Assembly: GCA_964566505.1 (NCBI GenBank)
Contig: CAZMIM010000002.1
Location: 46,529 to 110,528 of the forward strand
Direction: 5' to 3'
DNA length: 64,000 nt
DNA from: an uncultured Candidatus Saccharibacteria bacterium
GTDB taxonomy: Bacteria; Patescibacteriota; Minisyncoccia; Phycocordibacterales; PCTT01
A model generated the notes under the pieces. That model was not told where the DNA came from. It did not search any database and saw only the letters and a list, made by a program, of their open reading frames with translations. A program made the position numbers and the translations under genes. This document shows, one piece after another, positions 44,582-62,493 of the stretch. Position 1 is the stretch's first letter; each line of letters begins with the position of its first letter.

Positions 44582-44716
44582 ATGTCAACAACATATCAGC
44601 CCAAAAAAAGAAAAAGAAGTAAAACACACGGGTTTTTAACTCGTTCAAAAACAACTTCTGGGAAAAATATTCTCAAAAGTCGTCGAAGAAAAGGCCGAAA
44701 GAAGCTTTCAGTGTAA
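44582..44716 (+). CDS. rpmH: 50S ribosomal protein L34 (not in the ORF track; 44 aa)
   Basis: ATG at 44582 reads [44 protein letters not shown], the canonical L34 pattern. It is followed by rnpA. Confidence 0.85.
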
Positions 44717-45859: not shown

Positions 45860-46339
45860 ATGAATGAAATCCAACAAATAAAACAACTTATAGAGGAAAC
45901 ACTAAATAAGATGGGTATTTCATACACATCAGTATCTGTTGTTGATACAGAGCTTCCTGACTACACTAAGTTTGATATTGAAACACAAGAGAGTGGAATG
46001 CTTATAGGAAAAGATGGAGAACACCTGTCAGCGCTATCTTTTGTTTTGAGAAAGATGCTTGAGAAGCAGTTTGATACCCAAGAAACACCACGATTTTATA
46101 TTGATATTGGAGGATACCAAAAAACAAAAATTGAGAAGATTCAAAAAGTTGCAAAGATTATGGCAGAAAGAGCAACTTCGTTTAAGCGAGATATAGAACT
46201 CCCACCAATGACAGCGTACGAGAGAATGGTTATACATTCTACTCTCAAAGAAATGCCAAACATTGAGACAGAATCACAAGGAAAAGGAAGAGATAGAAGG
46301 ATTTATGTTCGCTTCAAAGAAGAAACACCCATTATTTAA
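45860..46339 (+). CDS. jag: Jag/KhpB-type RNA-binding protein (KH + R3H domains)
   Basis: LIGKDGEHLSALSFVL (KH-like) and LPPMTAYERMVIHSTL (R3H). The start is placed at MNEIQQIK, right after the yidC stop. Confidence 0.8.
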   Translation: MNEIQQIKQLIEETLNKMGISYTSVSVVDTELPDYTKFDIETQESGMLIGKDGEHLSALSFVLRKMLEKQFDTQETPRFYIDIGGYQKTKIEKIQKVAKIMAERATSFKRDIELPPMTAYERMVIHSTLKEMPNIETESQGKGRDRRIYVRFKEETPII

Positions 46340-46362
46340 AAAACCGCCAGAGGCGGTTTTTT
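46338..46362. terminator. Bidirectional terminator between jag and the convergent T4SS-like operon
   Basis: AAAAAA-CCGCC-AGA-GGCGG-TTTTTT. Confidence 0.65.
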
Positions 46363-47575
46363 AGAGCTCTATTCCCCACGCACTTAAGTCTCTTTTGTTT
46401 ATGAAGTAAAGATAATTTTCATCTTCATTGATAATAAGATTTGTTCCATCTATAAATTGAGAAACATCTTCTTGTGGGGTCATGATTTTGTCTGTAGCAA
46501 AACTGTTTATATCAACTTTCCAAAATACGTCATTAAAGAAAAACTCTCCTTTGTACCAATCATCAGGATAGAGTGCTTGTTGTATAAACTCAGGGACAGC
46601 ACAGTATAGTGATTCTTCTTCGAACCACGTACATTTCTCAGGAAGTGTTGTTATTGGAAGCTCCTGTGAGGTGTCTTCTGAGACATTGTACAGATATGTA
46701 TCGAAGCCACCAAAGATGTTTGTTCGTGCATACAAAACAAAAGAGCCTTCTGGTGATACGAGTGTTGTAAGGCCATCTGCAGACAGGATTTTATTAAATG
46801 AGCGGGATGAAACAGAGAAAAAATATAGTGAACCGTGTGTGTTTGCGGTTGGCGCGCTTGTGAATGCTATTTGGTTTGGGCTAAACCACTGCAGGTTCCA
46901 GTTTTTGTAAGAAGAGTTAAAGATATTTCGAGTGTTTCCGGTTGTTTGTGTGTAGTCTATACCAACAACATCCAAAACACGATCTATTAAGTAGAAATAT
47001 TTATTCCCTGCTGGTGATACAGCCACAGAAGAAATGTTGTTTGGTAAAAATTCTGTTTCAACACCGTTCTCATTAAGCACTCCCCACACACTCTCGATAC
47101 TTTCATAATCTGTATTTATATATTGATACAACACAGAGCCATTTTCACCTACAAGCGCTCTTTGAGAGCTTGGTACGGTTGTGTTCGAAACACGTTCTGT
47201 TTGTTTTGAGCTTGTGTCGTGCTCATATATATGACCGGTTGCCCTATTTACTATATATACACCATTTTCAGAAAGTCCAATTCCAGATGATGGTTGGTTG
47301 TGGGCTTTAAATACATTTTTAGCACTTCCACCGCTTACCCCAACAGAAGAAACAGCGCCTGAGTTTGTGCTCTCAAAAGGATCTTGTGTGGACTGGCCAC
47401 CTCCTCTATCGGTGTTCTCAGTTGGTTCTCCAAAAGGAAACAAGTCTACAGAGTCGTCTTGTCCCATTAAATCAATATTGTTATTTCCACCAATTCCACG
47501 AATTACAAAGAACCCCACAAGAGCAAGGATGAGAATGACAAGTATTAGAATTATAAAAAATCGCTTTTGGAACAT
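46361..47575 (-). CDS. Membrane-anchored protein, beta-propeller-like (last gene of the T4SS-like operon)
   Basis: N-terminal TM (FFIILILVILILALVGFFVI). It has repetitive beta-strand-rich composition reminiscent of TolB/PD40-type propellers. Its ATG lies 1 nt after the upstream stop. Confidence 0.45.
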   Translation of the reverse strand: MFQKRFFIILILVILILALVGFFVIRGIGGNNNIDLMGQDDSVDLFPFGEPTENTDRGGGQSTQDPFESTNSGAVSSVGVSGGSAKNVFKAHNQPSSGIGLSENGVYIVNRATGHIYEHDTSSKQTERVSNTTVPSSQRALVGENGSVLYQYINTDYESIESVWGVLNENGVETEFLPNNISSVAVSPAGNKYFYLIDRVLDVVGIDYTQTTGNTRNIFNSSYKNWNLQWFSPNQIAFTSAPTANTHGSLYFFSVSSRSFNKILSADGLTTLVSPEGSFVLYARTNIFGGFDTYLYNVSEDTSQELPITTLPEKCTWFEEESLYCAVPEFIQQALYPDDWYKGEFFFNDVFWKVDINSFATDKIMTPQEDVSQFIDGTNLIINEDENYLYFINKRDLSAWGIEL

Positions 47576-47576
47576 A

Positions 47577-48824
47577 TTAATCGTTATATACGGAAAAGTG
47601 GTCTGCAGAAATATGTGTCCCAAAGAACTTTATTTCTCCACCGCCGGGTATTGATATCCCCTCAAATGCTTCTAGTATTTTATCTGCTCTATTTCTTTCT
47701 CTTATTTCATACACAGCTCTTAACCCAGAATCGCTTGCAGCTTTAAAGAAAGACATCAGATATGCAACTTGTGTGTTTAAATCTGCAGTTTGAACCAGAA
47801 CAGCAGACTGGCCTGTGAAGTTCGCATCAAAACATGTTCCGTTGTAGTGACACTGACTCGCATGATTCCACTCTGGCGGGAAAGCCTCGGTTATTTGCCA
47901 CTGGATTTGCTGCTGACTCAGTGTTGTGTGTAAATTTTTAAGTTTTGGAATAAGATCTTTGTGGATACCCGTGTTCGAATCAGATTTTATAGGAAAATTA
48001 GCGTCTATTTCTTTAAAAATATCCAAACAATTATCTTCTCCTCCTAAGCACATTGCCCCAGAATCACTTGGCGACACAGCTTCATTTCCATCATCATCAA
48101 AATATATACAATCATCATAAACCTGAAAAAAGTTTTCTAGGTCAAGGTTTATAAAATTATTTGCCATAAGCGCGTATTGAGCGGTTTTACATTCTCCTTT
48201 GCTTTCAAAAGGTCCATATAAATCGTTTGTTAAGTGTACTCGAAAGTAAAAACCAGGGCCTCTGAATTGATTTTTGACCAGCGTTCCAAAGTTTGTTGTA
48301 GATGCTGTAGCCGGGCTGATACCCTTAAGTGAAGTGAGGTCTGGGTTTATTGTGTTTAGCAGCAGCACTGAAAGAAGAGCAATACCCAACCCCCAAAGAG
48401 CACGACGAACATCCGAAAGAGCATTGCTCTTCCCAGTAACAGAGCCTTGTGTCATATACTTTGCACCAGCAATAACAATCATAAGCACAGCAAAAGCAGA
48501 CGCGAGCCCGATTGATAGTTTGAGAATACTGTTTACAAAATCAGCAAATGAACGCTCGTCTCCGATTGGTAAAACAGAAACATATCTATTATTTTCTGCG
48601 TCAAAACGAAGTTCCTGGCCTTCTATATTTATAGGGGCTAGTAAAACATAATCAGATGTTCCATTTGGTGTTGTTCCATATATATATGCTTCACATTCAC
48701 TTTGAGAAAGACCCTGGTATAGCATACATTCTTCTATAACCGTTCTTTGTGCGAAAACAAAAAATGGGGTTAGTAGAAAATAAAATACAATAAAACTAAA
48801 TAAGATTTTTTTCATAATATTCAT
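47577..48824 (-). CDS. VirB2/TrbC-like pilin-type protein fused to a ~230-aa C-terminal domain
   Basis: Signal peptide, then the two-helix hairpin FADFVNSILKLSIGLASAFAVLMIVIAGAKYMTQG...RRALWGLGIALLSVLLLNTINPDL, typical of TrbC/VirB2. The C-terminal domain carries SQCHYNGTCFDANF ... SADHFSVY. Confidence 0.55.
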   Translation of the reverse strand: MNIMKKILFSFIVFYFLLTPFFVFAQRTVIEECMLYQGLSQSECEAYIYGTTPNGTSDYVLLAPINIEGQELRFDAENNRYVSVLPIGDERSFADFVNSILKLSIGLASAFAVLMIVIAGAKYMTQGSVTGKSNALSDVRRALWGLGIALLSVLLLNTINPDLTSLKGISPATASTTNFGTLVKNQFRGPGFYFRVHLTNDLYGPFESKGECKTAQYALMANNFINLDLENFFQVYDDCIYFDDDGNEAVSPSDSGAMCLGGEDNCLDIFKEIDANFPIKSDSNTGIHKDLIPKLKNLHTTLSQQQIQWQITEAFPPEWNHASQCHYNGTCFDANFTGQSAVLVQTADLNTQVAYLMSFFKAASDSGLRAVYEIRERNRADKILEAFEGISIPGGGEIKFFGTHISADHFSVYND

Positions 48825-49516
48825 TATATATCACCAAATATTAGACGTAATTGCTGAGAAGCTCTAGAGAAAAGGTTGTTTTTATCACGAGCGGACAAAC
48901 TAATAGAAACAGAGCCTCCTACCCCACCATCTCGCAGAGTTATTTTTGGAGAATTATTATTTATTAAGTTTCTATTGATTTTCCACTCATAATCAACAAA
49001 ATAAGAATCTCTTTCTGAGGCAAAGAAGAACGGATACGCCTCGAGCGTAATTTCTGTGTCTGTTGTGTTTATCTCATCACCCCATGATTGTCCAAAAAGA
49101 GTTCCAAGAGCGGGGTTGTTTTTGTAAATATATATTTCTGGGTCTGATACTTGGAGAGAAATACTTTTATTTGAAATTACAGCGCCGTTCTCATCCACTA
49201 GCTCAAGCGTTACTGTATTATTTCTAGGAGAGCTTGTGAACACAAAAGTATCTTTACCAACACCAGATTGCTCAGCAATACCGTAGTTGTTAAATCTCCA
49301 TCGATAATTTAGTGATTGAGGATTTACCACATCAACAATCGCAACAACACGAACACTAGCGCCTACAGTAATAAGGGGTCGGCCTGTATAAAATGGCGGT
49401 GTATATGTTTCTGCTTCCCAAAGCAGATCAATATCATCTGCGGTCTGTGCACTTACTACATTAGAAAAAGAAAGAAAAACAAAAAGTATTATTGTTATGT
49501 AGAGTATTTTTTTCAT
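48824..49516 (-). CDS. Secreted hypothetical protein (T4SS-like operon)
   Basis: Signal peptide MKKILYITIILFVFLSFSNVVSAQ, beta-rich. The start and stop codons overlap the neighbouring genes by 1 nt. Confidence 0.5.
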   Translation of the reverse strand: MKKILYITIILFVFLSFSNVVSAQTADDIDLLWEAETYTPPFYTGRPLITVGASVRVVAIVDVVNPQSLNYRWRFNNYGIAEQSGVGKDTFVFTSSPRNNTVTLELVDENGAVISNKSISLQVSDPEIYIYKNNPALGTLFGQSWGDEINTTDTEITLEAYPFFFASERDSYFVDYEWKINRNLINNNSPKITLRDGGVGGSVSISLSARDKNNLFSRASQQLRLIFGDI

Positions 49517-49920
49517 TATGCTGCTCTATTTATAAGTCGCTCTTTTCTAGCAACTCGCTCTTGTTGGACACGAGAAAGTGTTTGGTTTGTTTTTTGTGCA
49601 CTTTGTTTCTCAGTATCCTCTTCTCGAGTTGCTTTGATGTTTAGAAATACTACTGTCGTAAGCTCAGGCAAAGCATTCACGATTGGTATAAGACCAACAA
49701 TCATTCCAACAACAGCTCCTTGCGCCATCTTTTTGTTTTGTGTGTATGGTGCGCCATTTATAATGAACCACACAGGAAATATTATCCAGCTCGCGAGCCA
49801 TGTTGCCCAGTTTGCAACAGTCCCTACCGCAAGGGCGGTAAGCAAAAGCTCTAGCAAGTCAATAAAGAGTGCTGTTCCGAGCATAAGCCATTTTGTGATG
49901 TCGCTGATTCGGTAGTCCAT
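49516..49920 (-). CDS. Small 3-TM membrane protein (T4SS-like operon)
   Basis: 134-aa ORF with three hydrophobic helices and a basic C-terminal tail. It has 1-nt overlaps on both sides. Confidence 0.5.
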   Translation of the reverse strand: MDYRISDITKWLMLGTALFIDLLELLLTALAVGTVANWATWLASWIIFPVWFIINGAPYTQNKKMAQGAVVGMIVGLIPIVNALPELTTVVFLNIKATREEDTEKQSAQKTNQTLSRVQQERVARKERLINRAA

Positions 49921-51737
49921 TATTGTTGTGGGTTAACTGCGTCTTTTTGGTTCTTTATAGCCAAAAGCTGAGACGGGTCAGATGTAATTATTTGATCTTC
50001 TGTGTAAGAAGCAATAATCTTTATAGCCACATGCTTTAGACCTGCAAAGAATATTCCTTCCCCTACCCCAGATTCAAGGAGCAGATACTTTTCTTCGTCA
50101 GTTAGGTTGAAAGTTTTTTGCACTTCTTCAATGGCAGATGGACTTTGTTTTAGTAGTAGCTGTATAGAAGAGTTTGAGATAATAGGCATGCCGTATGGAG
50201 ATTTCAAAAAGTCGCCAACATCTTGTGTAATAGTTGAAAGCCCGAGGTAGTATTTTCGTCCTCGCTTTGCCATTCCAAACAGGAATGATGCAGTATCTTC
50301 TGAGCGCATCATCCACCACGCCTCATCAATTACCAAAAGCCGTTTCTTGAGCTCTTTTCGTACGGCGTTCCATATATAGTGGGTTACGATATGCATCGCT
50401 ACAGGCTTTAGCTCGTCTTCCATATCTCGTACTGAGAACACTACAAATTTCTTATCAATATCTACATTTGAAGCTTTATTAAGGAAGCCCGCCCATGTTC
50501 CTCGAGTGTATTTTGAAAGACGCTGTACAAGCGAGTCTGTTCCCTCTATTCCCGCAAGCACAAGCTCAAAATCAGATAGAAGCGGTGGCGAAATGTCTTT
50601 TAGGTCAGAGTCAGGGGTAATGTCTTTCAGCGCGTATGTTTCAGTTATAGCTTTGTCGATAATAGAATCCTCTTCTGGTGTAAGTCCACCGAGCATGATT
50701 CGCATAAGTCCCACAAGAGACACGATATGTGAACGAAGTACGTCTGCAGGAGACTCATCTTCTCGTGGTTTTGGAAGATCAAATGGGTTTATGTGGTGCT
50801 CTGATGTGAGTGAGATGTTGAAGTACCTACCGCCAGTAGATTCTGCTAGATATTCGTATTCTCTTTCTGGGTCAATAACAATTACATCAGTTCCAAACAT
50901 AAGTGAACGCAAAATCTCAAGCTTGGTAGCGTATGATTTTCCAGAACCAGCTTGCGCAAATGTTACAGAGTTATAGTTTTCCATTGAAAAACGGTCGAAG
51001 AGTATCAGGCTTGAGTTGTGTCGGTTGATTCCATAAAGTATTCCCCTATTTGATGTCAGGTCAAAAGAAATAAATGGGAACAAGCTAGATAGTGGTGATG
51101 AGTTTAGCTTTGAGTGCACTTTTAATGCATCGCTTGATATAGGAAGAACGCTTTTAAAGCCTTGCTCTTGCTGGAAGAGTGCTGGTTTTAGGTAGATAAG
51201 TTTTGATTCCAATACTGACTTAAGCTCTGACTCAATTTTATCGAGCTCATCTGAAGAGTCTCCATAAATAGTTATATAGAGCCCAACATCAAAGATGCGC
51301 TCTCGTGCTTGTTGTAGGTCATCTCGGAGCTGTTCAAGGTCTTGATAAGCTGTATCAAGCATTGGGTCTCGCACGAGTCCTTTTTCGTATCGTGTATTGA
51401 TTTGGCTTTCTACTTCAGCAACTTTTTTCTGGAACTTTTTTAGTATTTGGGCTGTGTCTATTGGGTTTACCACAATAGATACATCAAATTCCCTATCCAT
51501 GTTTACCACAGGAGAAAACCAACTATCAGAAAGAAACCGAGGGTACGAGATTACGAAAAATGTTCGAGCAACCTTGTCCCCCAGACCAAGCTCTTTTGAA
51601 GAAACTTTTAGTGCAGAAGGTGCAATAACATCTTGAAGCTCCAAAACCCCAGCCTCGTATATTTGCTGCGGAAGCACTGGTGTAATAGAAGGGTTTGCAG
51701 ACTCTTTATTCTTTTTTAGAAAATCAAATATGCCCAT
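49920..51737 (-). CDS. virB4: VirB4/TrsE-family type IV secretion ATPase
   Basis: Walker A AQAGSGKSYATK, DPEREYEYL, Walker B LLVIDEAWWMM, and the N-terminal pattern ARTFFVISYPRFL typical of VirB4-like proteins. Confidence 0.85.
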   Translation of the reverse strand: MGIFDFLKKNKESANPSITPVLPQQIYEAGVLELQDVIAPSALKVSSKELGLGDKVARTFFVISYPRFLSDSWFSPVVNMDREFDVSIVVNPIDTAQILKKFQKKVAEVESQINTRYEKGLVRDPMLDTAYQDLEQLRDDLQQARERIFDVGLYITIYGDSSDELDKIESELKSVLESKLIYLKPALFQQEQGFKSVLPISSDALKVHSKLNSSPLSSLFPFISFDLTSNRGILYGINRHNSSLILFDRFSMENYNSVTFAQAGSGKSYATKLEILRSLMFGTDVIVIDPEREYEYLAESTGGRYFNISLTSEHHINPFDLPKPREDESPADVLRSHIVSLVGLMRIMLGGLTPEEDSIIDKAITETYALKDITPDSDLKDISPPLLSDFELVLAGIEGTDSLVQRLSKYTRGTWAGFLNKASNVDIDKKFVVFSVRDMEDELKPVAMHIVTHYIWNAVRKELKKRLLVIDEAWWMMRSEDTASFLFGMAKRGRKYYLGLSTITQDVGDFLKSPYGMPIISNSSIQLLLKQSPSAIEEVQKTFNLTDEEKYLLLESGVGEGIFFAGLKHVAIKIIASYTEDQIITSDPSQLLAIKNQKDAVNPQQ

Positions 51738-51738
51738 A

Positions 51739-52383
51739 TTATTTTAGTGGAATTGGTTTTTCTAGATCTCCAGGGTTGAATATTTTGTAATAAAGTTCGA
51801 TAAGCTCTTCTGTGCCAAGTCGTGCCACTTGTACTCCAGTACGAGAAAGACCTTGCTCTACTATTCCCACCCTTTGCTCAAGCTGTGAAAGGTATTCTTG
51901 GAATGTCTGATCATCATTTTGTGTGCTCTGACCCCCTTTTTTCTTTCCTGGAAGTAGTGATGTGATACCTCCCTTTTGTTTTATAACAGGAGGAGTATAA
52001 GGAACCACAACAAAGAAAGATTTTGACATAATATCTGACCCTTCAGTGAACTTTTTGATGAAGTTTATATATTCCTGGGTCTGAATCTTCATCAAATCAT
52101 TACTTTGTTTTGTTTGGAGCTCTTCTAGAAGCGCTATATACGGTCTGATATCAAGCTCTCGAGATTGGATGAAGAACTGCACAGAGAAATCTAGCGAGTT
52201 TAGGAAGTTTTGAAACTGGAACAATACAGACTCCTGCTCATCACGAGATTTAAGTGCAAGGTTTATAGACGAAGCCATCAAAACAGCCCTAAGCGACTTG
52301 TCTTTAAGTACCACAACGCCGCCTCGAATCTCCTCGATAGGTACAAAATTTTGTGCTGATTGTGCGTTTTGTGTAGTAGCCAT
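51739..52383 (-). CDS. Hypothetical protein resembling a free-standing VirB4 N-terminal-type region
   Basis: FVPIEEIRGGVVVLKDKSLRAVLMASSINLALKSRDEQESVLFQFQNFLNSL parallels the N-terminal pattern of VirB4 proteins. The stop is followed by T-ATG of virB4. Confidence 0.4.
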   Translation of the reverse strand: MATTQNAQSAQNFVPIEEIRGGVVVLKDKSLRAVLMASSINLALKSRDEQESVLFQFQNFLNSLDFSVQFFIQSRELDIRPYIALLEELQTKQSNDLMKIQTQEYINFIKKFTEGSDIMSKSFFVVVPYTPPVIKQKGGITSLLPGKKKGGQSTQNDDQTFQEYLSQLEQRVGIVEQGLSRTGVQVARLGTEELIELYYKIFNPGDLEKPIPLK

Positions 52384-52385
52384 AG

Positions 52386-52829
52386 TTATCTAATGGTATC
52401 AGGTTTTTTATTTTGTGCTTCTTGTGAATACATGCTGTCTTTTACCCCCAAACTCCATGCAATATCTTTTAGCTTGCTATCAGATAGACGAGGAACAGTG
52501 ACCTGTTCTATTGCTGTTTTTGCAGAAGCGCTTTTTTGTGTCGGTTTTTTCTGATTTTTCTTCCAAATATAGAGCTTCCCCCCAAACGAATACTTTATAG
52601 CTGACTCCATAATCTCAATAAATGGTTTTCCATTGATTTTGTAGAAAGCGAGCGCAAGCGCCAAGCCAACAATGGGAACAATAAGAAGTATTGCAATGAT
52701 TGTTGGCAGGACTTGCCAGATAACAAACGCAATACCTCCCCCACCAGCAACATACACAAATTGTTTGAATGTGAGTGGGCCAAAGATTTTGTCTTCAACC
52801 TCGATAAATTGTGGTACTTGGAATTGCAT
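52386..52829 (-). CDS. PrgI/VirB3-like small membrane protein
   Basis: MQFQVPQFIEVEDKIFGPLTFKQFVYV followed by two TM helices, the pattern of PrgI-family proteins of Gram-positive-type T4SS. Confidence 0.6.
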   Translation of the reverse strand: MQFQVPQFIEVEDKIFGPLTFKQFVYVAGGGGIAFVIWQVLPTIIAILLIVPIVGLALALAFYKINGKPFIEIMESAIKYSFGGKLYIWKKNQKKPTQKSASAKTAIEQVTVPRLSDSKLKDIAWSLGVKDSMYSQEAQNKKPDTIR

Positions 52830-52834
52830 AATAA

Positions 52835-53413
52835 TTATTCTACTGATTCTCGATATGGATCCGATGATTTTTGTGGGACATTTTGTTTCGGCTGAGGTGC
52901 TTTCTTTGTCTGGTTCTTAATCACAACAGGCTCATTTAGTTTTGAGCCAACAACAGCGTTTGTTTTCTGTGGTTTCTCTATTTCTTTTAGAAGCTCATCT
53001 GACACAGATGGTCTTGGCGCTTGGGTTTTCAGCTCTTGTGCGCTCGGGTGTTCTACTGGTTTTATTTTTTCTGCCGGCATAGGCTCGCTAACAGCTTGTC
53101 TTTTTGGTGCTATTAGGTGCTGTCTTATTGGTTGGAATATTTGTGAATCCACATCAGAGATTATTTGATTAATTTTTTCTTCAGGAAGTTGTAAGGCACT
53201 TTTTAGGTTTTTAGGAAAATCATTTGGTTGTGTAAACCCAAGGATAACCAAACTAATTTGGTCTGCCAAAAGCCCTGATTGCTCAATGTTTAGGCCGTGT
53301 TTTTCTTGAATTCCAGAGAGCGTTTCAATGGCGATATCTGTTGTGAGCGAGTCTTTAAGCTCTTGTGGAAGCTCTCCAAATCGCTCTATTCTTTTGTCTT
53401 TAGGAACACTCAT
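52835..53413 (-). CDS. Hypothetical soluble protein (T4SS-like operon)
   Basis: 192-aa ORF with no TM helix and a proline/charged C-terminal half. Confidence 0.45.
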   Translation of the reverse strand: MSVPKDKRIERFGELPQELKDSLTTDIAIETLSGIQEKHGLNIEQSGLLADQISLVILGFTQPNDFPKNLKSALQLPEEKINQIISDVDSQIFQPIRQHLIAPKRQAVSEPMPAEKIKPVEHPSAQELKTQAPRPSVSDELLKEIEKPQKTNAVVGSKLNEPVVIKNQTKKAPQPKQNVPQKSSDPYRESVE

Positions 53414-53416
53414 TTT

Positions 53417-56014
53417 TTAGAAGTTATATTGACCGTACCCTTTTGTCAGCCAGTCGTTAACATTTATTTGTGCCTCAGTAGCAACTTTCCTATCAACAAG
53501 GTCTTTGAATAGTTGACGAATCTCAGCTTTATCTTTCGCATCAAGCTTCTTTGCCAAAGCTATAAATCTAGTTGAATCGAGCTGTTTTTGGAATTCTTTG
53601 TCAGTAAGAATGTCTCTCTCTAGCTTTGCAAGGTCCTCAGGGTCTCCGATATCCCTTATTGCGTCTCTTATTACATCACCAAAACCTGATTTAAGGGCTT
53701 TTCTTAAGGGCTTAACTCTAGACTCTTTTATTTGTTTTTTTAGCGCCCCATCAACATCTTTCCTATCAAGAAGTGTTTTGTATTGTCCCCCACTCATGTT
53801 TGCCACCATTACATCAACTAGTTTTGGATCACCAAGAATTTCATTGCCAATATTTTCAACATCCTTACTTGTAAGTGTGTTTAAGGCGTCTTTAACATCT
53901 TTTTTTGCACCACTTTTTAGGGCAGTAGATAGTGTATTTAGATAGGTTTCTCTTACTTTTGATTTATCTTTTTCAGATTTTTTATCCAAACTTAGGAATT
54001 TGTTGAAATGCGACGAATTCATAAAAGGCGTTATTTTTTCTAGTAGTTCGTCACCAATTTTATCGAAGTTTCCGCTGTGTCTTCCATCTAGAAGATTTCT
54101 AATATCAGTTTGTGGTGTATTTGTTTCTCCTTTTCCATCTAGGGCATCCTTTAGATCACTAAAGAAAGCTGTTCTAAGAGATTTCTTTTCATTTGAATTA
54201 AGGTCTCCTTTTTCAGCTGCCTCAAGTTGTCCACCATTCATATACGGGGCAAGTTTTTCTAGTTGCTCTAGTGACATGTTCTCAAAGTCTTTGTTTGAGA
54301 AAGTTTTAAGAACATTTTTAAGTTCTTCGATTGCACCCTTAACATTATTTGAGATGTCTTCGAGAGGTTTATTAACTCTCTCCATGTATGCTTTTTGAAT
54401 CTTTTTCTTCTCACCCTCTGATTTGTCGCTCTTATCAATCGCTTCCATTTGCTTGGCATTAAGAAGTGGTGCAATTTTTGATAGAGCTCCAGTACTTAGA
54501 TCGGAAACTTCTTTATTTGTCATACTGCCAATAATACTCTTTATGTCTTTATGAATTTGATCCTTACGCGCGTCATATTCTGGCTGAGTAAATAAACCTC
54601 CAGAAAACTGTTCGTTGAGCTTGTCGAGTTTTTTTGCAAGAGCCGTAAGCTCAGAAGCCCTTGCGCTTTTTGTTCGTGATGCGTCTTCTGCTCTTTTTCG
54701 CTTATCTTGCTCTTTTAGGTTCATTGAGCCACCAAATTTTGAGTCTTCAACAGACTGAATTCCTCGTCTTACAGCTCTGCTTCCGGCATCTGTTACGGCT
54801 GCAATTCCAGTATATTTTGTGAGTGGTTTGTATATTTTTCCAAGAGGGTGAGTCGATGGTTTTGCGGTTCTAAATCGCTCGTCATATCTGTCATAAACTT
54901 TTCCAGCACGTTTTGCTAGCCTGCCCGCCACATTTCTTCCAACCCAACTTCGTGTGCTGTTTCCCCAACCTATTACTGTTTGGGCTCCAGTGGCGCCAAC
55001 CTGCTTTGAGATAACAAGTGCACCAATCATGAAGCCGCTAATTATTGTAAATACCAATATTAAGTCTAATCCGCCAGCTGGGTTTTTTAGAGTTTCGGCA
55101 AAAGTTTGTGAGTTTCCCAGAAAACGCAGTTGGAATGTCGGGTGTGTAACAATTTTTGCAGTTAGCCATATCATTGCAAAGTATATAGGCGCAAAGAACG
55201 CTTGTTCTAATAAGACTTTCTTCCACTTGTTCCAATATGATTTTGTGTTCGGAAGTATCATGGCCACGAACGCAAGCGGTGAGAGAATCATCAGAAATAC
55301 AAGCACCACAAATCTCGTAATCAAAAGGGCGGCGCCCGCAAAGAAAATAAACCCTGTTATAAGAAGGAATATTGAACCAAACACTCCAATGATAATTATC
55401 TCTGTGTGCCCTAGAGCTGGGTCGTCTGTAACACTGCTTCCATCTGGTTTATATATACTTTGGATTTTCATTGCATTTGCGAAAACACCAGCAATTCCTC
55501 CTTCTCTAACCCCACTTGTAGGGTCTATTGTTTCTCCGGTTATGCCATCTTGTACCTCGACTGCATTATAGAACTGTAGAGAAACTATATTTGCAACATC
55601 TATAACTACTTTTGTGAAAAATAAGCTGAAGTTTATTAAAAGACCTACTATCACTACATTTAGAATTATTTTCTTTGCATTGAAGCTTGGAATATTTAAT
55701 ACGGTCGCAATAGATGCATAGATTAAAAAGAAAATAAATAACACATTTGCAAAGTCGCGGAATGTCTCCCACCCTATTGTCACAGCCCCAAGGCTATCTA
55801 CGGTCGGTGCCATATTTACTACAAGACGCTCAATTGCAATGTTAAACAAAAGGCCTCCAATACCCATAATCCAACCGCTTATGGTTAGGAAAACGTTTGC
55901 AACAGTGGCCATAACTCCCTCACCAAGAGCAAAGGCAAACTCAGAACCCACAGGAGAGAATGCTCCTGCGAGTACAAAGAATATGAAGATTATGAATATA
56001 TATTTTCTCTTCAC
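53417..56014 (-). CDS. VirB6/TrbL-like polytopic membrane protein with long repeat-containing cytoplasmic tail
   Basis: The N-terminal ~370 aa contain about 8 TM helices of TrbL/VirB6-like organisation. The C-terminal ~480 aa hold about five degenerate ~55-aa helical repeats (..L..L.P.[LM]N..Q..A..K.D...EKK..). Confidence 0.55.
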   Translation of the reverse strand: MKRKYIFIIFIFFVLAGAFSPVGSEFAFALGEGVMATVANVFLTISGWIMGIGGLLFNIAIERLVVNMAPTVDSLGAVTIGWETFRDFANVLFIFFLIYASIATVLNIPSFNAKKIILNVVIVGLLINFSLFFTKVVIDVANIVSLQFYNAVEVQDGITGETIDPTSGVREGGIAGVFANAMKIQSIYKPDGSSVTDDPALGHTEIIIIGVFGSIFLLITGFIFFAGAALLITRFVVLVFLMILSPLAFVAMILPNTKSYWNKWKKVLLEQAFFAPIYFAMIWLTAKIVTHPTFQLRFLGNSQTFAETLKNPAGGLDLILVFTIISGFMIGALVISKQVGATGAQTVIGWGNSTRSWVGRNVAGRLAKRAGKVYDRYDERFRTAKPSTHPLGKIYKPLTKYTGIAAVTDAGSRAVRRGIQSVEDSKFGGSMNLKEQDKRKRAEDASRTKSARASELTALAKKLDKLNEQFSGGLFTQPEYDARKDQIHKDIKSIIGSMTNKEVSDLSTGALSKIAPLLNAKQMEAIDKSDKSEGEKKKIQKAYMERVNKPLEDISNNVKGAIEELKNVLKTFSNKDFENMSLEQLEKLAPYMNGGQLEAAEKGDLNSNEKKSLRTAFFSDLKDALDGKGETNTPQTDIRNLLDGRHSGNFDKIGDELLEKITPFMNSSHFNKFLSLDKKSEKDKSKVRETYLNTLSTALKSGAKKDVKDALNTLTSKDVENIGNEILGDPKLVDVMVANMSGGQYKTLLDRKDVDGALKKQIKESRVKPLRKALKSGFGDVIRDAIRDIGDPEDLAKLERDILTDKEFQKQLDSTRFIALAKKLDAKDKAEIRQLFKDLVDRKVATEAQINVNDWLTKGYGQYNF

Positions 56015-56028
56015 GAATTAATTAATGA

Positions 56029-58476
56029 TTATTGGCCACCTGTTCCCTCATCACCCCCGCTTTTGTCTGGGTCGTCCGATCCACCACGAGAACCAAAGAA
56101 GTCTCTGCTTCCTGTTACTGGCCCACCGCCAGAGCCTGGCTGTGATGGACATGTGATAGTGAGCCGGTAATCTCCATCATGATATAGAACCACTCCGTAT
56201 GCACTGCTTTGTACCGCGCTTCTAATATCTGCCCCTCCATATGAGCTTCTGTCACTTCTATATACTATTTGATATCTTTCTCCACCAAGCCCCTCAAATG
56301 TTGCTGGTTGCCCAGAGCTTTTGTTTATAAACTCACCTGTACATGTGCCCGTGCTTTGTATTTCTGTGTATGACCAGTCTACATAAGATGCATATCGTGG
56401 TGATGCTCCTTCTCCAAGGTCTGTGTACTCAACATCACTTATTTGAATTGTTGGTCGAAGAACAGAACAACTTCCTGTGATACTTGAACGGAAGTGTGAG
56501 ATTTGTTGTACGAGTTGTAGCATTCTCACCGCCTCACCAGCAAGATCGCCAACATTTGGCACGCTATTTATTAGTGCGCGATGTCGTGTATCAATATCAT
56601 TTATCTCTTCTTCGTCTGCACCAGAAATTTCATCAAGTTCATCAAGTAGTGCTCCAGCGTCTTCAATACTCTCTTCTACTACAGATATTAGATTTAAGTA
56701 TGTGTAGTAGTCTGCTCCGTCTCTAACAAGACTTCGTGTGTTGTATGAGTCTCGGAGCTCTTCATAGCTTGCTCTTGCAATTGTACTTTGTTGAGTTGTA
56801 CCACACGCATTTAGGTCAAGATATATATCGCTGAGATTTATTTCATCATTTTGGAAAGCTCCAATATCTAGTGTGTATGGCTCACAAACATCACCCCTGT
56901 CATCATCTGGATCGCCAGTGTACTCACCCGCATCATATGTCTCACACGCTTGAACTGGCGAAAGCGCGCTTCCAAATTCATTAAACAGATCCTGAACATC
57001 ATCCATTGTGAAATAATAGGCAGATATTGGTATACCAATATTTCCTTTTGTTCTATTGAATTGCGCTACAGCAAGTAGATCCCTCAAGTTAGTAATTGTT
57101 TCTACCAAAGAAGCTCTGATTTGTGCAATTCGAAGTGAGTTTGCTGAGCTTGGTGGAGTGCTTCCACTCCCTGCATATCGTAGACCTCTTTCTGGGTCTT
57201 GTATTTTGCCAAAGAGTGAATCTGCAAAGCCAGAAACAATCTCATTCATTTCATCAGCATATATAGCTCTTTCATAATCACCTATTGCAACCTTTTCTAC
57301 AATTGCTCCTACAAGGTTTCCAGGGGTAATTACTTCTGGGTATCGTCCGTCAGCACATCTTCCTATGGAGCTTGGCTGAGAACCATCTTCACATCGAAGT
57401 TCTGGCAAGTATCCGTTGCCGTATCGGAGCTGTTCAAGCTCATAGTCGCGTGACTCATCGATAAACTGAGAAAGTTTTTCTGTTTGATCTATATATGCTG
57501 TATATGGGTTGCTTCCAGGATCTTCAAGTAGTGCAAACCATGCATTCCAACCACCCCTTTGGAAGTTCTCACTTAGGAAAACATCTGTATTTCCTCGTCC
57601 TAGTACATCCTCAAGCGCACATGTTTGTTGTCCGTACCCCCAAATACCTCGAGGCGCTATATATCCAGAGTATCCGCTTGGTCGGTAGTACGAACGATAG
57701 TAGTCGTTATATAGCGATGCTGAAATTCCATCACGATATGTTGTACAAATAGTGTTAAATGTCTCGCTGTCACCCATGAAGTCAGCAAATGCTTGGTCGG
57801 CTCTAAGTCTTAGCTGTGCTCCAAGGTTTGTAACGAAACGAGGGTTTCCAGCACGCGCGATTCCTTGTACCCATTTTCGTGTTTCGTCAGACATTGTTGC
57901 AAGTATTCTGTCTGCTGCTTCTCGTGCAAGCGCGTCATAACACTGCTCTTTTTTGTATGCGGCCTCCATTGCCTGTCTTAGTCCTGGCTCATACACTTCC
58001 TGTGGTCCTTTTTTCTTTCCTCCAAAAAATCCAGACACCAACCCCCCTACTATTCCACCTACTCCAGGAATATCTTCTATAAACTCTGCAGCCTGACCAA
58101 TTTTTTCTACCAAAGATGTGTCCTCAAGCAGGTCAACAACTCCGTTTACCGCAATTTCAAGACCTTGATCTACTCCTTCTGACACAGCGTCAGTGATAAC
58201 GCTTCCACTACATGCGTCTAGTATATAAATTCCTTCTCTAATTCTATTTACCCTATCTCCACCACCGAAAGGCACTCCAGGATTGAGTATTATGTTTGTG
58301 AAAATGTCAGAGATATTGTCATTTACATCAATATCAGACCCTCTATTGTTTGAATCACAAAGACCTGGGTCTAGGTCACAAATATCGCTTTGCGCCAATG
58401 CGTTGTTTGGCGTTATAAAAAATAAAGCAAAAACTGAAAGAAGAAATATAGCAAAATAGAGTGGTGTTTTTTTCAT
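56029..58476 (-). CDS. Large secreted protein of unknown function (T4SS-like operon)
   Basis: 815-aa ORF with a signal peptide (...ITPNNALAQ), many Cys residues, and a Gly-rich C-terminus (GSGGGPVTGS...GGDEGTGGQ). Confidence 0.5.
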   Translation of the reverse strand: MKKTPLYFAIFLLSVFALFFITPNNALAQSDICDLDPGLCDSNNRGSDIDVNDNISDIFTNIILNPGVPFGGGDRVNRIREGIYILDACSGSVITDAVSEGVDQGLEIAVNGVVDLLEDTSLVEKIGQAAEFIEDIPGVGGIVGGLVSGFFGGKKKGPQEVYEPGLRQAMEAAYKKEQCYDALAREAADRILATMSDETRKWVQGIARAGNPRFVTNLGAQLRLRADQAFADFMGDSETFNTICTTYRDGISASLYNDYYRSYYRPSGYSGYIAPRGIWGYGQQTCALEDVLGRGNTDVFLSENFQRGGWNAWFALLEDPGSNPYTAYIDQTEKLSQFIDESRDYELEQLRYGNGYLPELRCEDGSQPSSIGRCADGRYPEVITPGNLVGAIVEKVAIGDYERAIYADEMNEIVSGFADSLFGKIQDPERGLRYAGSGSTPPSSANSLRIAQIRASLVETITNLRDLLAVAQFNRTKGNIGIPISAYYFTMDDVQDLFNEFGSALSPVQACETYDAGEYTGDPDDDRGDVCEPYTLDIGAFQNDEINLSDIYLDLNACGTTQQSTIARASYEELRDSYNTRSLVRDGADYYTYLNLISVVEESIEDAGALLDELDEISGADEEEINDIDTRHRALINSVPNVGDLAGEAVRMLQLVQQISHFRSSITGSCSVLRPTIQISDVEYTDLGEGASPRYASYVDWSYTEIQSTGTCTGEFINKSSGQPATFEGLGGERYQIVYRSDRSSYGGADIRSAVQSSAYGVVLYHDGDYRLTITCPSQPGSGGGPVTGSRDFFGSRGGSDDPDKSGGDEGTGGQ

Positions 58477-58479
58477 AAA

Positions 58480-59430
58480 TTAGTTTGATAATTCTGCCAG
58501 GATTTCTCCGAGCTGTTGATAAATGTCAAAGTTTGAGTTACTTAGTGTTTTAAACCGCTCAATACCAGCAAGGCCTACAAGAGGGTCATCAAAAATTTTC
58601 TGCATCTCTTCTATTGCAAGAGCCAAATTGGCGTAGTTGTTTATGAGCGTTACGTGCTCTTGACTGAATTCTGATGGCGCAGGCAAAAGTAATAGTCTTG
58701 ATTTAACTGCATTATAAAAAGTTATATTGTCTTCCAGCCGTTCAAGCATTAGTGGGTTCTGGTCTGTTATAACTTCCGCAAGAAGTTGTGTTTCGTTTGC
58801 TACTGCATTTAATTTCTCGGCCTCAATAGTAATAATATCGAGAATTGATCTAATATATTCGAACTGCTTTTCCGATGTATTGGTTGTGGTCTTAATATCT
58901 TGTGATGTATATTCTGGAACTCCTGTGCTTAGTGACTCTGCAACAGATGAAGAAAGTGAGTCTAGGTCATATGAGCTATCTTGGAGAGCTTCTCCAGTAA
59001 TATTTGCATCTGATTGCACCAAAATACTTGGGAGTGCTTGCTCAAAAACACTTTGTGTTTGATTTATTGAAAGTGAGTCTTGGATTTGGAGTTGTGTATG
59101 GATACGCCCGAGGTGGCTTTCTGTAATCGCGTCATTTGGACCAGGTATCGCAGGGTGTGTACCTTGTGTTATCTCTTCCCCATCATCAACACCGTCTCCA
59201 TCTGTGTCAGGATTTCGAATATCGCTGTCCCATAGTATTTCTTCCCAATCAAAAAGCCCGTCACCATCGGTGTCGTCTTGGTTTTTTTCATAGAAATCGC
59301 TTTGAAGGACAGTAACTCCCTCTTCTTGCGTTTGATCGTTCGTTCGTGGTGTTGTATCGAGGACAATAACTGCAATAAGGACAATAGCGATACCTATAAA
59401 AATAGAGACTGTGATTTTCTTATTCAACAT
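58480..59430 (-). CDS. Membrane-anchored protein with thrombospondin-type-3-like Ca-binding repeats (first gene of the operon)
   Basis: N-terminal TM, DTDGDGLFDWEE and DTDGDGVDDGEE repeats, and a GAGGGGAG Shine-Dalgarno upstream. Confidence 0.5.
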   Translation of the reverse strand: MLNKKITVSIFIGIAIVLIAVIVLDTTPRTNDQTQEEGVTVLQSDFYEKNQDDTDGDGLFDWEEILWDSDIRNPDTDGDGVDDGEEITQGTHPAIPGPNDAITESHLGRIHTQLQIQDSLSINQTQSVFEQALPSILVQSDANITGEALQDSSYDLDSLSSSVAESLSTGVPEYTSQDIKTTTNTSEKQFEYIRSILDIITIEAEKLNAVANETQLLAEVITDQNPLMLERLEDNITFYNAVKSRLLLLPAPSEFSQEHVTLINNYANLALAIEEMQKIFDDPLVGLAGIERFKTLSNSNFDIYQQLGEILAELSN

Positions 59431-59502
59431 ACACTTCTCCCCTCAATATATAGAAATTATAACAAACAAAGCGCCCCATGAGCGCTTACTGACCTGCTTT
59501 CT

Positions 59503-59511
59503 TGTGGATAA
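59503..59511 (-). promoter_or_regulatory. Perfect consensus DnaA box between rsmA and the T4SS-like operon
   Basis: The plus strand TGTGGATAA is the reverse complement of TTATCCACA. It lies about 45 nt upstream of a TATAAT box (59456-59461). Confidence 0.4.
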
Positions 59512-60339: not shown

Positions 60340-60341
60340 AG

Positions 60342-62282: not shown

Positions 62283-62375
62283 ATAAATAGTGTACCTCAG
62301 CACGAGATATGTGAATATAAACTATACCACATTTGCTATTTTAGGAATTTTTATTGGTGATAGTGTAATATCTCG

Positions 62376-62401
62376 TTTTAGGGCTAAAAATAGCCCTAAA
62401 A
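62376..62401. terminator. Bidirectional terminator
   Basis: TTTTAGGGCTA-AAAA-TAGCCCTAAAA. Confidence 0.55.
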
Positions 62402-62406
62402 TACTA

Positions 62407-62435
62407 TTGACATAAATATATTAAATTAGTATAAT
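62407..62435 (+). promoter_or_regulatory. Consensus sigma70-type promoter P1
   Basis: TTGACA-17 nt-TATAAT, a perfect match to both hexamers. Confidence 0.6.
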
Positions 62436-62464
62436 TGGGTATCCACAATCAATTATTTAATCCA

Positions 62465-62493
62465 TTGACAGTATATATGCTTTGGATTATAGT
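62465..62493 (+). promoter_or_regulatory. Near-consensus promoter P2, 58 nt downstream of P1
   Basis: TTGACA-17 nt-TATAGT. Confidence 0.55.

What the first reader, a model, noticed from the sequence alone, without database searches (positions are those of the whole stretch)
46361..59430. 13-kb, 12-gene translationally coupled T4SS-like operon without any DNA-transfer module
Twelve same-strand genes are packed with 1-nt overlaps or gaps of 1-14 nt. They include:
- a VirB4-family ATPase (Walker A, Walker B and DPEREY motifs);
- a PrgI/VirB3-like protein;
- a VirB6/TrbL-like polytopic protein;
- a VirB2/TrbC-like pilin-type protein.

The remaining eight are secreted or membrane proteins that I cannot assign to any family:
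- a TSP3-repeat protein;
- an 815-aa Cys-rich secreted protein;
- a 192-aa soluble protein;
- a 214-aa VirB4-N-like protein;
- a 3-TM protein;
- a 230-aa secreted protein;
- a propeller-like protein.

The window contains no relaxase, VirD4-type coupling protein, integrase or flanking repeats. The operon sits about 2 kb from the dnaA/rpmH origin neighbourhood, among core genes.

This argues for a chromosomal, non-conjugative secretion or uptake machine rather than an integrated conjugative element. In an organism with CPR-like features, it is a plausible candidate for host interaction or DNA uptake.

Most of its components are uncharacterised.
Basis: partly seen in the sequence, partly recalled or inferred. 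Interest (0 to 1): 0.78.

Follow-up and report, generated by a model that had tools for sequence, protein, structure and literature searches.

The report
Patescibacterial chromosomal type IV secretion operon
An 11-gene operon beside the replication-origin genes of a Paceibacteria-type (CPR) genome encodes the relaxase-less, Gram-positive-style type IV secretion system already described as near-universal in this phylum, so the finding is real but not new.

Summary
Window 46361-59430 (minus strand) carries 11 tightly packed genes, not 12. Junctions run from a 1-nt overlap to a 14-nt gap, and the span is 99.8% coding.

Component assignments:
- VirB4 is firm, and it is split into a TrsD-like N-domain gene plus the ATPase gene.
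- PrgI/VirB3 is firm.
- VirB6 has remote support: the ortholog profile hits TrwI (E 3.6e-4) and 8 of 60 orthologs hit Pfam TrbL.
- The "pilin" is a 415-aa protein. It joins a VirB2-like two-helix module to a C-terminal LAS-fold (VanX/VanY/MepA-like) peptidase domain.
- The remaining products are a TolB-like propeller, a tandem-Ig protein, a Ca-binding anchored protein and a large secreted family with only inconclusive VirB5-like similarity.

No relaxase, VirD4, integrase or flanking repeats occur in the window. The block UvrD-KsgA-[operon]-Jag-YidC-RnpA-DnaA-DnaN is syntenic in the related Paceibacteria genomes compared here (the best 80 loci).

It was published in 2023 and 2025, including the origin proximity and the missing relaxase. 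The function remains unknown. Novelty is low. The modest additions concern individual components.

The parts
59436..59464 (-). Putative operon promoter and ribosome-binding site: extended -10 TGTTATAAT (59464-59456) and Shine-Dalgarno GAGGGGAG (59443-59436) ahead of ATG 59430
   Evidence: Read directly from the sequence. The consensus scanner did not score it. Inferred, not shown.
58480..59430 (-). G1, 316 aa: N-terminal membrane anchor, Ca-binding TSP3-type repeats (about residues 50-95), and a conserved helical C-terminal domain of unknown fold
   Evidence: Pfam TSP3_bac E 2.7e-5. The ortholog profile hits the Bap Ca-binding region of 7c7r_B at E 1.2e-7. One hydrophobic segment at residues 1-30. 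Detected in 27 of 80 loci.
56029..58476 (-). G2, 815 aa: secreted, 14 Cys. Conserved all-alpha core (about residues 165-450) plus a lineage-variable C-terminus. Candidate surface or tip protein.
53417..56014 (-). G3, 865 aa: extended VirB6/TrbL-like polytopic membrane protein (about 7 TM, residues 1-340) with a roughly 500-aa K/D/E-rich hydrophilic C-terminal region
   Evidence: A profile of 60 orthologs has its top PDB hit in TrwI (VirB6 of R388, 7o3v_F), E 3.6e-4. 8 of 60 orthologs hit Pfam TrbL, best E 9.2e-5. Hydropathy. The window protein has no direct Pfam hit.
52835..53413 (-). G4, 192 aa: soluble cytoplasmic protein. Conserved roughly 105-aa N-domain, disordered linker, and an invariant C-terminal DPYRE motif. 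Unknown family.
   Evidence: Alignment of 21 orthologs. No TM segment. No Pfam, NCBIfam or PDB hit.
52386..52829 (-). G5, 147 aa: PrgI family (VirB3-like) membrane protein with a two-helix hairpin
   Evidence: Pfam PrgI E 6.6e-11, 43 bits against a cut-off of 27. Detected in 76 of 80 loci at a median 52% identity.
51739..52383 (-). G6, 214 aa: TrsD-like protein, equivalent to the detached N-terminal domain of VirB4
   Evidence: NCBIfam VirB4_plasma positions 99-233, E 4.2e-12. TrsD E 6.1e-7. CD1110 positions 2-118. Pfam TraC_F_IV N-part. Detected in 77 of 80 loci at a median 60% identity.
49920..51737 (-). G7, 605 aa: VirB4 ATPase (middle and C-terminal ATPase domains)
   Evidence: NCBIfam conju_CD1110 E 1.7e-110, 370 bits against a cut-off of 325, model positions 185-733. 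Walker A GSGKS at residue 264, DPEREY at 289, Walker B VIDEAW at 469. 74-81% identical to homologs in the best 80 Paceibacteria loci.
49516..49920 (-). G8, 134 aa: small membrane protein with 2-3 TM segments, unknown family
   Evidence: Hydropathy. A small 2-5 TM ORF occupies the same position in about 45 of 74 related loci. No family or PDB hit.
48824..49516 (-). G9, 230 aa: signal peptide plus two tandem Ig-like domains
   Evidence: A profile of 75 orthologs hits the Ig-like domains of phage T4 Hoc (3shs_A), E 8.8e-6, in two stretches. Detected in 76 of 80 loci.
47577..48824 (-). G10, 415 aa: signal peptide, VirB2-like T4SS pilin two-helix module (residues 92-160), a low-confidence linker, and a C-terminal LAS-fold (VanX/VanY/MepA/Hedgehog-type) metallopeptidase domain (residues 270-415). 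Putative Zn ligands are H326, D333 and H409.
46361..47575 (-). G11, 404 aa: N-terminal membrane anchor plus a TolB-like beta-propeller
   Evidence: A profile of 65 orthologs hits 12 TolB structures, best 7mx5_A at E 1e-5. TM segment at residues 1-32. Start codon ATG at 47575.
46338..46356 (-). Intrinsic terminator-like hairpin (CCGCC-TCT-GGCGG) followed by T6, 5 nt after the G11 stop. It is shared with the convergent jag gene.
   Evidence: Read directly from the sequence. The scanner did not list it.

Best explanation
This is the chromosomal, vertically inherited type IV secretion system of the Patescibacteria clade, in its Paceibacteria form. It derives from monoderm MPF_FATA systems.

Shown by homology:
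- a split VirB4 ATPase (G6 TrsD-like N-domain plus G7);
- a PrgI/VirB3-like protein (G5);
- an extended VirB6-like polytopic protein (G3);
- a protein with a VirB2-like pilin module (G10).

Inferred mechanism:
- The VirB4 hexamer docks through PrgI onto the VirB6 translocon in the single membrane. It powers extraction and assembly of the G10 pilin module into a short pilus or conduit.
- G10's LAS-fold peptidase domain cuts peptidoglycan peptide links. The target could be the cell's own wall during assembly, the host's wall at the contact site, or both.
- The anchored or secreted wall-zone proteins G1 (Ca-binding), G9 (tandem Ig) and G11 (TolB-like propeller) substitute for the missing VirB8/9/10 scaffold.
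- Secreted G2, with a conserved helical core and a variable C-terminus, acts as a distal or tip host-contact protein.

The machine mediates contact-dependent exchange with a host cell, not conjugation. My split on the substrate:
- protein or effector export, about 0.45;
- import of host macromolecules such as nucleic acids, about 0.25;
- adhesion or pilus only, about 0.15.
For: The closest VirB4 models are Firmicutes and Mycoplasma ICE types, that is MPF_FATA.

Conservation:
- 559 confirmed relatives, the best 80 at 74-81% VirB4 identity, all titled as Patescibacteria/CPR or unnamed bacterial MAGs (the lineage-specific titles are Kaiser-, Campbell-, Taylor-, Zambryski-, Nomura- and Adlerbacteria, i.e. 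Paceibacteria).
- The same 11-gene order and the same core-gene flanks across loci.

No mobile-element features:
- no relaxase, T4CP or integrase in the window;
- no flanking repeats;
- GC content like the surroundings.

Component evidence:
- 8 of 11 products are membrane or secreted.
- G10's C-domain has the LAS fold, and its relatives swap in other wall hydrolases.

Literature:
- PMC12102498 describes the same component set, relaxase absence and origin proximity.
- PMC10633639 shows the Saccharibacteria T4SS, including its pilins, is essential for epibiotic growth, with no recognisable relaxase or T4CP.
- PMC10936435 reports T4SS pilins among the most highly expressed genes of unknown function in cultured Paceibacterales.
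- bioRxiv 10.64898/2026.06.21.733656 reports tubular structures, possibly T4SS pili, at a parasite-host interface.
Against: - No experiment bears on this organism or on any Paceibacteria T4SS. Transport direction and substrate are unknown; PMC11665869 calls the role in Saccharibacteria "completely unknown".
- VirB6 support is remote, and the window protein itself hits no model.
- The pilin domain of G10 scores below Pfam's gathering cut-off. It sits in a 415-aa protein, so polymerisation into a pilus is unproven.
- 15 of 65 related loci have no gene at the G10 position.
- The roles proposed for G1, G2, G4, G8, G9 and G11 rest on fold or topology only.
- A VirD4-like gene may exist elsewhere in the genome.
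Confidence: 0.85

Rival explanations
1. An integrated conjugative element, or a decayed remnant of one, that happens to sit near the origin.
For: VirB4, PrgI and TrsD are closest to conjugative MPF_FATA models. The system's ancestors were conjugative (PMC12102498).
Against: The same site and gene order recur across the best 80 species-level loci, with only core genes as flanks. The window has no relaxase, T4CP, integrase or repeats. All 11 ORFs are intact and 99.8% of the span is coding. Composition shows no anomaly.
Confidence: 0.03
2. A dedicated nucleic-acid import machine, analogous to ComB or Ced, that feeds a nucleotide-auxotrophic cell from its host.
For: Patescibacteria lack nucleotide synthesis. 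The T4SS is essential in S. epibionticum whereas comEC is dispensable (PMC12857230, PMC11665869). A 2026 preprint links host-RNA feeding with a monophyletic VirB4 (10.64898/2026.06.21.733656). There is a weak partial match of G7 to CedB (E 4e-7).
Against: No DNA- or RNA-binding component was recognised among the 11 products. The CedB match covers only about 70 residues around the Walker B region. There is no experimental evidence for import by any Patescibacteria T4SS.
Confidence: 0.25
3. A pilus and adhesion apparatus only: VirB4 assembles a VirB2-type fibre for host attachment, with no substrate translocation.
For: The operon encodes a pilin module plus several adhesin-like products: Ig domains, Ca-binding repeats and the variable C-termini of G2 relatives, which include discoidin, PKD and surface-Ig domains. 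No coupling protein is present.
Against: The window also encodes type IV pilus genes, the known adhesion and motility system in this phylum (PMC12857230). 15 of 65 related loci keep the operon but have no gene at the pilin position. The VirB6 translocon component is conserved.
Confidence: 0.15

Closest known systems
Patescibacteria-clade T4SS (Quinonero-Coronel et al. 2025, PMC12102498; S. epibionticum SEML1_0006-0019, Wang et al. 2023, PMC10633639)
   Same: Same component set: VirB4, TrsD, PrgI/VirB3, VirB6 and a VirB2-like pilin next to virB4. No relaxase or T4CP nearby. Chromosomal, and adjacent to dnaA, dnaN, rnpA, ksgA and rpmH. Monoderm-type, with no VirB7/9/10.
   Different: This Paceibacteria form has a single pilin-module gene, fused to a LAS-fold peptidase, rather than the arrays of 2-11 small pilins reported for Saccharimonadia and Microgenomatia. 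No separate lysozyme or peptidase genes lie downstream of virB4. The accessory genes G1, G2, G4, G8, G9 and G11 are not named in the sections of those papers read here.
MPF_FATA conjugative T4SSs of Firmicutes (pGO1 Trs, pCF10 Prg, C. difficile CTn CD1110 family)
   Same: The VirB4 is of the CD1110 type (370 bits). There is a separate TrsD-like protein as in pGO1, a PrgI, a VirB6-like protein and a membrane-anchored wall hydrolase function (compare PrgK and TrsG).
   Different: No relaxase, T4CP, oriT or PrgB-type adhesin. A VirB2-like pilin module is present, which Gram-positive systems lack. The operon is chromosomal and syntenic across a whole class rather than mobile.
T4SSs that work without a coupling protein or that import DNA (Bordetella Ptl, Brucella VirB, H. 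pylori ComB, Sulfolobales Ced)
   Same: They show that a VirB4-based machine can act without VirD4 or a relaxase, and can export proteins or import DNA.
   Different: Those are diderm or archaeal systems with different accessory sets. Sequence similarity beyond VirB4 is negligible here; CedB and CedD give only fragmentary matches.
LAS-family peptidoglycan peptidases (VanX, VanY, MepA, LdcB; Hedgehog N-domain fold)
   Different: No Pfam model recognises the domain. It is fused to a T4SS pilin-like membrane hairpin. Activity and specificity are untested.

Membership tests
Type IV secretion system (any class) | VirB4-family ATPase with intact Walker A and B motifs | tested here: met
   NCBIfam CD1110 family E 1.7e-110, above its cut-off. 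GSGKS, DPEREY and VIDEAW motifs are present.
MPF_FATA (monoderm) class | VirB4 closest to Firmicutes/Tenericutes-type models | tested here: met
   The best models are conju_CD1110 (370 bits) and Mycoplasma ICE VirB4 (279 bits), against TraC-F 194 and VirB4_CagE 132. No phylogeny was run.
MPF_FATA (monoderm) class | PrgI/TrsC-type VirB3 homologue next to virB4 | tested here: met
   Pfam PrgI E 6.6e-11, above the gathering score. The gene lies two positions upstream of virB4.
MPF_FATA (monoderm) class | Separate TrsD-like protein (pGO1 subclass) | tested here: met
   G6 matches NCBIfam TrsD at E 6.1e-7, below the family cut-off, and the N-terminal part of VirB4 models at E 4.2e-12.
MPF_FATA (monoderm) class | No outer-membrane core (VirB7/VirB9/VirB10) | tested here: met
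   No such family was hit by any of the 11 products in Pfam or NCBIfam.
Patescibacteria-clade T4SS | VirB6-like polytopic protein near virB4 | tested here: inconclusive
   The window protein has no direct hit. The ortholog profile hits TrwI at E 3.6e-4, and 8 of 60 orthologs hit TrbL at up to 9.2e-5. Support is remote but consistent.
Patescibacteria-clade T4SS | VirB2-like pilin (PF18895/PF04956) near virB4 | tested here: met
   G10 residues 92-158 hit PF18895 at E 3e-4, below the gathering score. 42 of 56 positional orthologs hit PF18895 (best 2.4e-10) and 2 hit TrbC.
Patescibacteria-clade T4SS | No relaxase or coupling protein in the virB4 neighbourhood | tested here: met
   The window ORFs of at least 120 aa, excluding antisense overlaps of longer ORFs, were scanned with Pfam and none matched. 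Genome-wide absence is not testable from 64 kb.
Patescibacteria-clade T4SS | Chromosomal site next to dnaA, dnaN, rnpA, rpmH and ksgA | tested here: met
   All five genes are identified within 5 kb of the operon. The same neighbours appear in related loci.
Patescibacteria-clade T4SS | VirB4 falls inside the monophyletic Patescibacteria VirB4 clade | not tested
   No tree was built. Indirect support: 74-81% identity to VirB4 of the best 80 related loci, all from Patescibacteria/CPR or unnamed bacterial MAGs.
Integrative conjugative element | Relaxase, T4CP, integrase, and att or direct repeats at the borders | tested here: not met
   None was found. The borders are conserved core genes across the related loci.
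VirB5/TraC family (candidate for G2) | Three-helix-bundle fold with an appended globular part, plus sequence-family membership | tested here: inconclusive
LAS metallopeptidases (candidate for the G10 C-domain) | Hedgehog/DD-peptidase fold with a His-Asp-His zinc site | tested here: met
VirB8-like (NTF2-fold) component | N-terminal TM helix plus an NTF2-like domain near virB4 | tested here: not met
   G9 is Ig-like and G11 is a propeller. The folds of G1's C-domain and of G8 were not determined. This agrees with the reported scarcity of VirB8 in Patescibacteria (PMC12102498).

The most novel reading that the evidence does not exclude
The Paceibacteria form may be a distinct T4SS architecture with three features:
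- The VirB2-like module serves as a membrane or pilus tether for interchangeable cell-wall hydrolases. Here the hydrolase is a LAS peptidase; relatives carry VanY, NlpC/P60, M23, YkuD or SLT domains.
- A large, previously unnamed secreted family (the G2 core, at least 1586 cluster representatives) is a VirB5-like tip protein whose hypervariable C-termini set host specificity.
- An Ig, propeller and Ca-binding trio replaces VirB8/9/10.

Together these would form a wall-breaching conduit through which host macromolecules are imported.
Probability: 0.15. Interest if true: 0.7.

Novelty: already known. Interest (0 to 1): 0.3.

Why it matters
The Patescibacteria T4SS is near-universal in a phylum that makes up a large share of bacterial diversity. 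It is essential in the only genetically tractable member, and its function is still unknown.

This window adds no new kind of system. It does give a clean, complete Paceibacteria example and some hypotheses about individual components:
- the pilin and wall-hydrolase fusion;
- the large G2 family with a possible VirB5-like core;
- the DPYRE-tailed cytoplasmic protein G4;
- the conserved 11-gene set.

These could guide structural or genetic work once a Paceibacteria co-culture becomes tractable.

Tried and rejected
- **Twelfth gene.** I looked for one and found none. Every junction is 14 nt or shorter.
- **Homologue searches for G2.** The word-indexed search returned only G2 itself and one relative, both with the single sequence and with a 34-sequence profile. 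The exhaustive HMMER search was needed to find the family.
- **Source contig.** An exact-match look-up for the G2 protein found nothing.
- **Structure prediction.** As a result G1, G3, G4, G8, G9 and G11 have no models.
- **PDB sequence or profile searches.** G2, G4, G8 and the G10 C-domain gave nothing.
- **G3 internal repeats.** BLAST self-comparison of the C-terminal region found none. Only one imperfect 51-nt DNA repeat was seen.
- **DnaA boxes.** They are not enriched in the window: 25 against 18.5 expected. oriC was therefore not located.
- **G9 as the missing VirB8.** Rejected, because G9 is Ig-like.
- **ICE reading.** Rejected on synteny and the lack of mobility genes.
Full report
**What is there.** Window 46361-59430 carries eleven consecutive ORFs on the minus strand. 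I call them G1 to G11 in order of transcription:

| Gene | Coordinates | Length |
|---|---|---|
| G1 | 58480-59430 | 316 aa |
| G2 | 56029-58476 | 815 aa |
| G3 | 53417-56014 | 865 aa, GTG start |
| G4 | 52835-53413 | 192 aa |
| G5 | 52386-52829 | 147 aa |
| G6 | 51739-52383 | 214 aa |
| G7 | 49920-51737 | 605 aa |
| G8 | 49516-49920 | 134 aa |
| G9 | 48824-49516 | 230 aa |
| G10 | 47577-48824 | 415 aa |
| G11 | 46361-47575 | 404 aa |

- G11 starts at the ATG one base after the G10 stop, not at the upstream TTG.
- The junctions are gaps of 3, 14, 3, 5, 2 and 1 nt, then three 1-nt overlaps, then a 1-nt gap. 99.8% of the span is coding.
There is no room for a twelfth.
- Only G1 is preceded by a clear Shine-Dalgarno (GAGGGGAG) and an extended -10 (TGTTATAAT). 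The internal starts have neither. This fits translational coupling but does not prove it.
- A GC hairpin with a T6 tail follows the G11 stop.

**Core components.**
- G7 is a VirB4 ATPase. It matches the NCBIfam CD1110 family at E 1.7e-110 (370 bits, cut-off 325) over model positions 185-733. Walker A (GSGKS), DPEREY and Walker B (VIDEAW) are intact.
- G6 matches the first roughly 120-230 positions of VirB4 models (E 4.2e-12) and TrsD (E 6.1e-7). VirB4 is therefore split into two genes, as in the pGO1-type TrsD arrangement.
- G5 is a PrgI-family (VirB3-like) protein, E 6.6e-11, above Pfam's threshold.
- G3 itself hits nothing in Pfam. A profile of its first 420 residues with 59 orthologs has TrwI, the VirB6 of plasmid R388, as the best of 177,635 PDB sequences (E 3.6e-4). 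Eight of the 60 proteins hit Pfam TrbL individually (best 9.2e-5). The VirB6 call is thus supported only remotely. G3 is an "extended" VirB6 with a hydrophilic C-terminal region of about 500 aa.
- G10 carries a T4SS_pilin (PF18895) match at residues 92-158. In the window protein this is sub-threshold (E 3e-4). However, 42 of 56 genes at the same position in relatives hit PF18895 (best 2.4e-10) and two hit TrbC/VirB2.

**The other products.** Eight of the eleven products have a signal peptide or membrane segments.
- **G10 is not a simple pilin.**
  - Its AlphaFold model has a confident C-terminal domain (residues 270-415, pLDDT 87-97).
  - The pattern H326-x6-D333...H409 is conserved in relatives.
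  - Relatives of the pilin module carry other wall-active domains instead: VanY, NlpC/P60, M23, M15_4, YkuD and SLT.
  - The position therefore behaves as a pilin-like membrane module fused to interchangeable peptidoglycan hydrolases. This is the likely functional counterpart of VirB1, PrgK or TrsG.
- **G11** is a membrane-anchored TolB-like beta-propeller. Its profile hits 12 TolB structures, best E 1e-5.
- **G9** is a secreted protein with two Ig-like domains. Its profile hits phage T4 Hoc at E 8.8e-6.
- **G1** is membrane-anchored with Ca-binding TSP3-type repeats and an unassigned helical domain.
- **G2** is secreted and has 14 cysteines.
  - Its core (about residues 165-450) defines a large family of 1586 cluster representatives at E<=1e-3. 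Their lengths range from 243 to 1633 aa.
  - The C-termini vary and include discoidin, surface-Ig, PKD, beta-helix and GH5 domains.
  - The core is confidently all-alpha.
- **G4** is a soluble protein with a conserved N-domain and an invariant C-terminal DPYRE motif. **G8** is a small 2-3 TM protein. Neither matches anything known.
- I found no VirB8-like protein.

**Context.**
- To the left lie jag/khpB, yidC, rnpA, rpmH (44582-44716), dnaA and dnaN. To the right lie ksgA, a UvrD/PcrA helicase and a divergent LysM-M23 peptidase.
- The other window ORFs of at least 120 aa that are not antisense overlaps of longer ORFs were scanned. They are core functions or unassigned. None is a relaxase, coupling protein or integrase.
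- There are no att-like repeats, and GC content matches the flanks.

**Comparative evidence.**
- A scan of one genome per species found 559 loci encoding relatives of G7. The best 80 share 74-81% identity, and all are titled as Patescibacteria/CPR or unnamed bacterial MAGs; the lineage-specific titles name Kaiser-, Campbell-, Taylor-, Zambryski-, Nomura- and Adlerbacteria, that is Paceibacteria.
- tblastn of all window proteins against these loci shows the order UvrD-KsgA-G1...G11-Jag-YidC-(RnpA)-DnaA-DnaN in nearly every locus long enough to show it.
- Median identity is 77% for VirB4, 60% for TrsD and 52% for PrgI. It is only 24-34% for the envelope proteins. The cytoplasmic motor is conserved and the surface parts evolve fast.
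- Variations:
  - About 45 of 74 loci have a G8-like small membrane ORF.
  - 15 of 65 loci have no gene between G9 and G11.

**What it is.** This is the Paceibacteria form of the Patescibacteria T4SS.
- Quinonero-Coronel et al. 2025 (PMC12102498) found VirB4 in 2417 of 3035 genomes, forming a monophyletic clade inside MPF_FATA. TrsD, PrgI, VirB6 and VirB2-like pilins lie nearby, relaxases are almost always absent, and T4CP genes are rarely near virB4. In Paceibacteria and Microgenomatia the system sits beside dnaA, dnaN, rnpA, ksgA and rpmH.
- Wang et al. 2023 (PMC10633639) showed by Tn-seq that the Saccharibacteria T4SS and its pilins are essential for epibiotic growth.
- A 2025 review (PMC12857230) lists these systems as notable newcomers to the T4SS superfamily.
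- The function is described as "completely unknown" (PMC11665869).
- In cultured Paceibacterales, T4SS pilins are among the most highly expressed unknown genes (PMC10936435).
- A 2026 preprint reports tubes at a parasite-host interface that may be T4SS pili.

**How it probably works.** Everything below is inferred unless marked as shown.
- The split VirB4 (shown) docks via PrgI (shown) on the VirB6-like translocon (remote homology).
- VirB4 energises assembly of the G10 pilin module.
- G10's LAS domain (fold shown, activity untested) opens peptidoglycan.
- G1, G9 and G11 form the wall-zone scaffold.
- G2 is the distal host-contact protein.
- The machine is not conjugative.
- Whether it exports proteins, imports host macromolecules or only attaches cannot be decided from sequence. 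I weight these about 0.45, 0.25 and 0.15.

**Verdict.** Some points are not stated in the sections and passages of the papers I read:
- the pilin and LAS-peptidase fusion with swappable hydrolase modules;
- the size of the G2 family and its possible VirB5-like fold;
- the fold assignments for G9 and G11;
- the G4 DPYRE motif.

These are component-level additions, and they are modest and partly tentative.

Noticed in passing
window 59503-59511 (-): A perfect DnaA box (TTATCCACA) lies between the ksgA stop and the putative G1 promoter. It is one of only two perfect boxes in the window. Boxes with up to 1 mismatch are not enriched overall (25 against 18.5 expected).
   Followed up: partly
window 60000-62600: The cumulative GC-skew minimum lies at about 60-62 kb. 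That is the divergent uvrD / LysM-M23 intergenic region (62304-62585), which holds two near-consensus sigma-70 promoter matches; it is not at dnaA (44.5 kb). Either the skew simply follows gene strand, or oriC is not beside dnaA. If oriC is at dnaA/rpmH, the operon is transcribed head-on to replication.
   Followed up: no
window 46361-59430, all 11 products: Cysteines occur only in extracytoplasmic products (G2 14, G10 8, G11 2). The other eight proteins have none.
   Followed up: no
window 52835-53413 (-), G4: This soluble protein has an invariant C-terminal DPYRE motif and a conserved ILxEIENP segment after a disordered Pro-rich linker. It looks like a short docking motif for another component.
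   Followed up: partly
loci L028, L036, L040, L043, L051, L056, L059, L061, L062, L065, L069, L080 and others: 15 of 65 related loci have no gene between the G9 and G11 orthologs, so no pilin-module gene sits there. Most of them have a longer VirB4 ORF (about 640-710 aa by a longest-ORF call).
   Followed up: partly
window 62586-63701 (+): A LysM + peptidase M23 protein is divergently placed 3 kb upstream of the operon. It is found at the same relative position in 9 of 80 related loci. It may be an additional wall hydrolase, but more likely it is a general cell-division enzyme.
   Followed up: partly
window 53463-53513 and 53736-53786: An imperfect 51-nt direct repeat (73% identity, 273-nt spacing) lies inside the region encoding the hydrophilic C-terminal part of G3. 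This hints at an internal protein repeat. Protein self-BLAST did not confirm it.
   Followed up: partly
window 9809-11788, 15049-15930, 23381-23788, 33731-35410: The window also encodes type IV pilus parts (PilM-like protein, an N-methyl pilin, PilB ATPase) and a 659-aa dockerin/Ig-like surface protein. These are further host-interaction candidates in the same 64 kb.
   Followed up: no
window 21013-21468 (+): A small HNH endonuclease ORF (151 aa) lies immediately upstream of tRNA-Ser (21496-21581). It is the only nuclease-like or possibly mobile gene seen in the window.
   Followed up: no
loci L041:4779-6359 and L033:4681-6264: Two G2 orthologs have sub-threshold Pfam DUF4141 matches (E 1.3e-5 and 0.022) at the start of the mature protein. 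The window's G2 lacks this match. I could not check the significance of DUF4141 here.
   Followed up: partly
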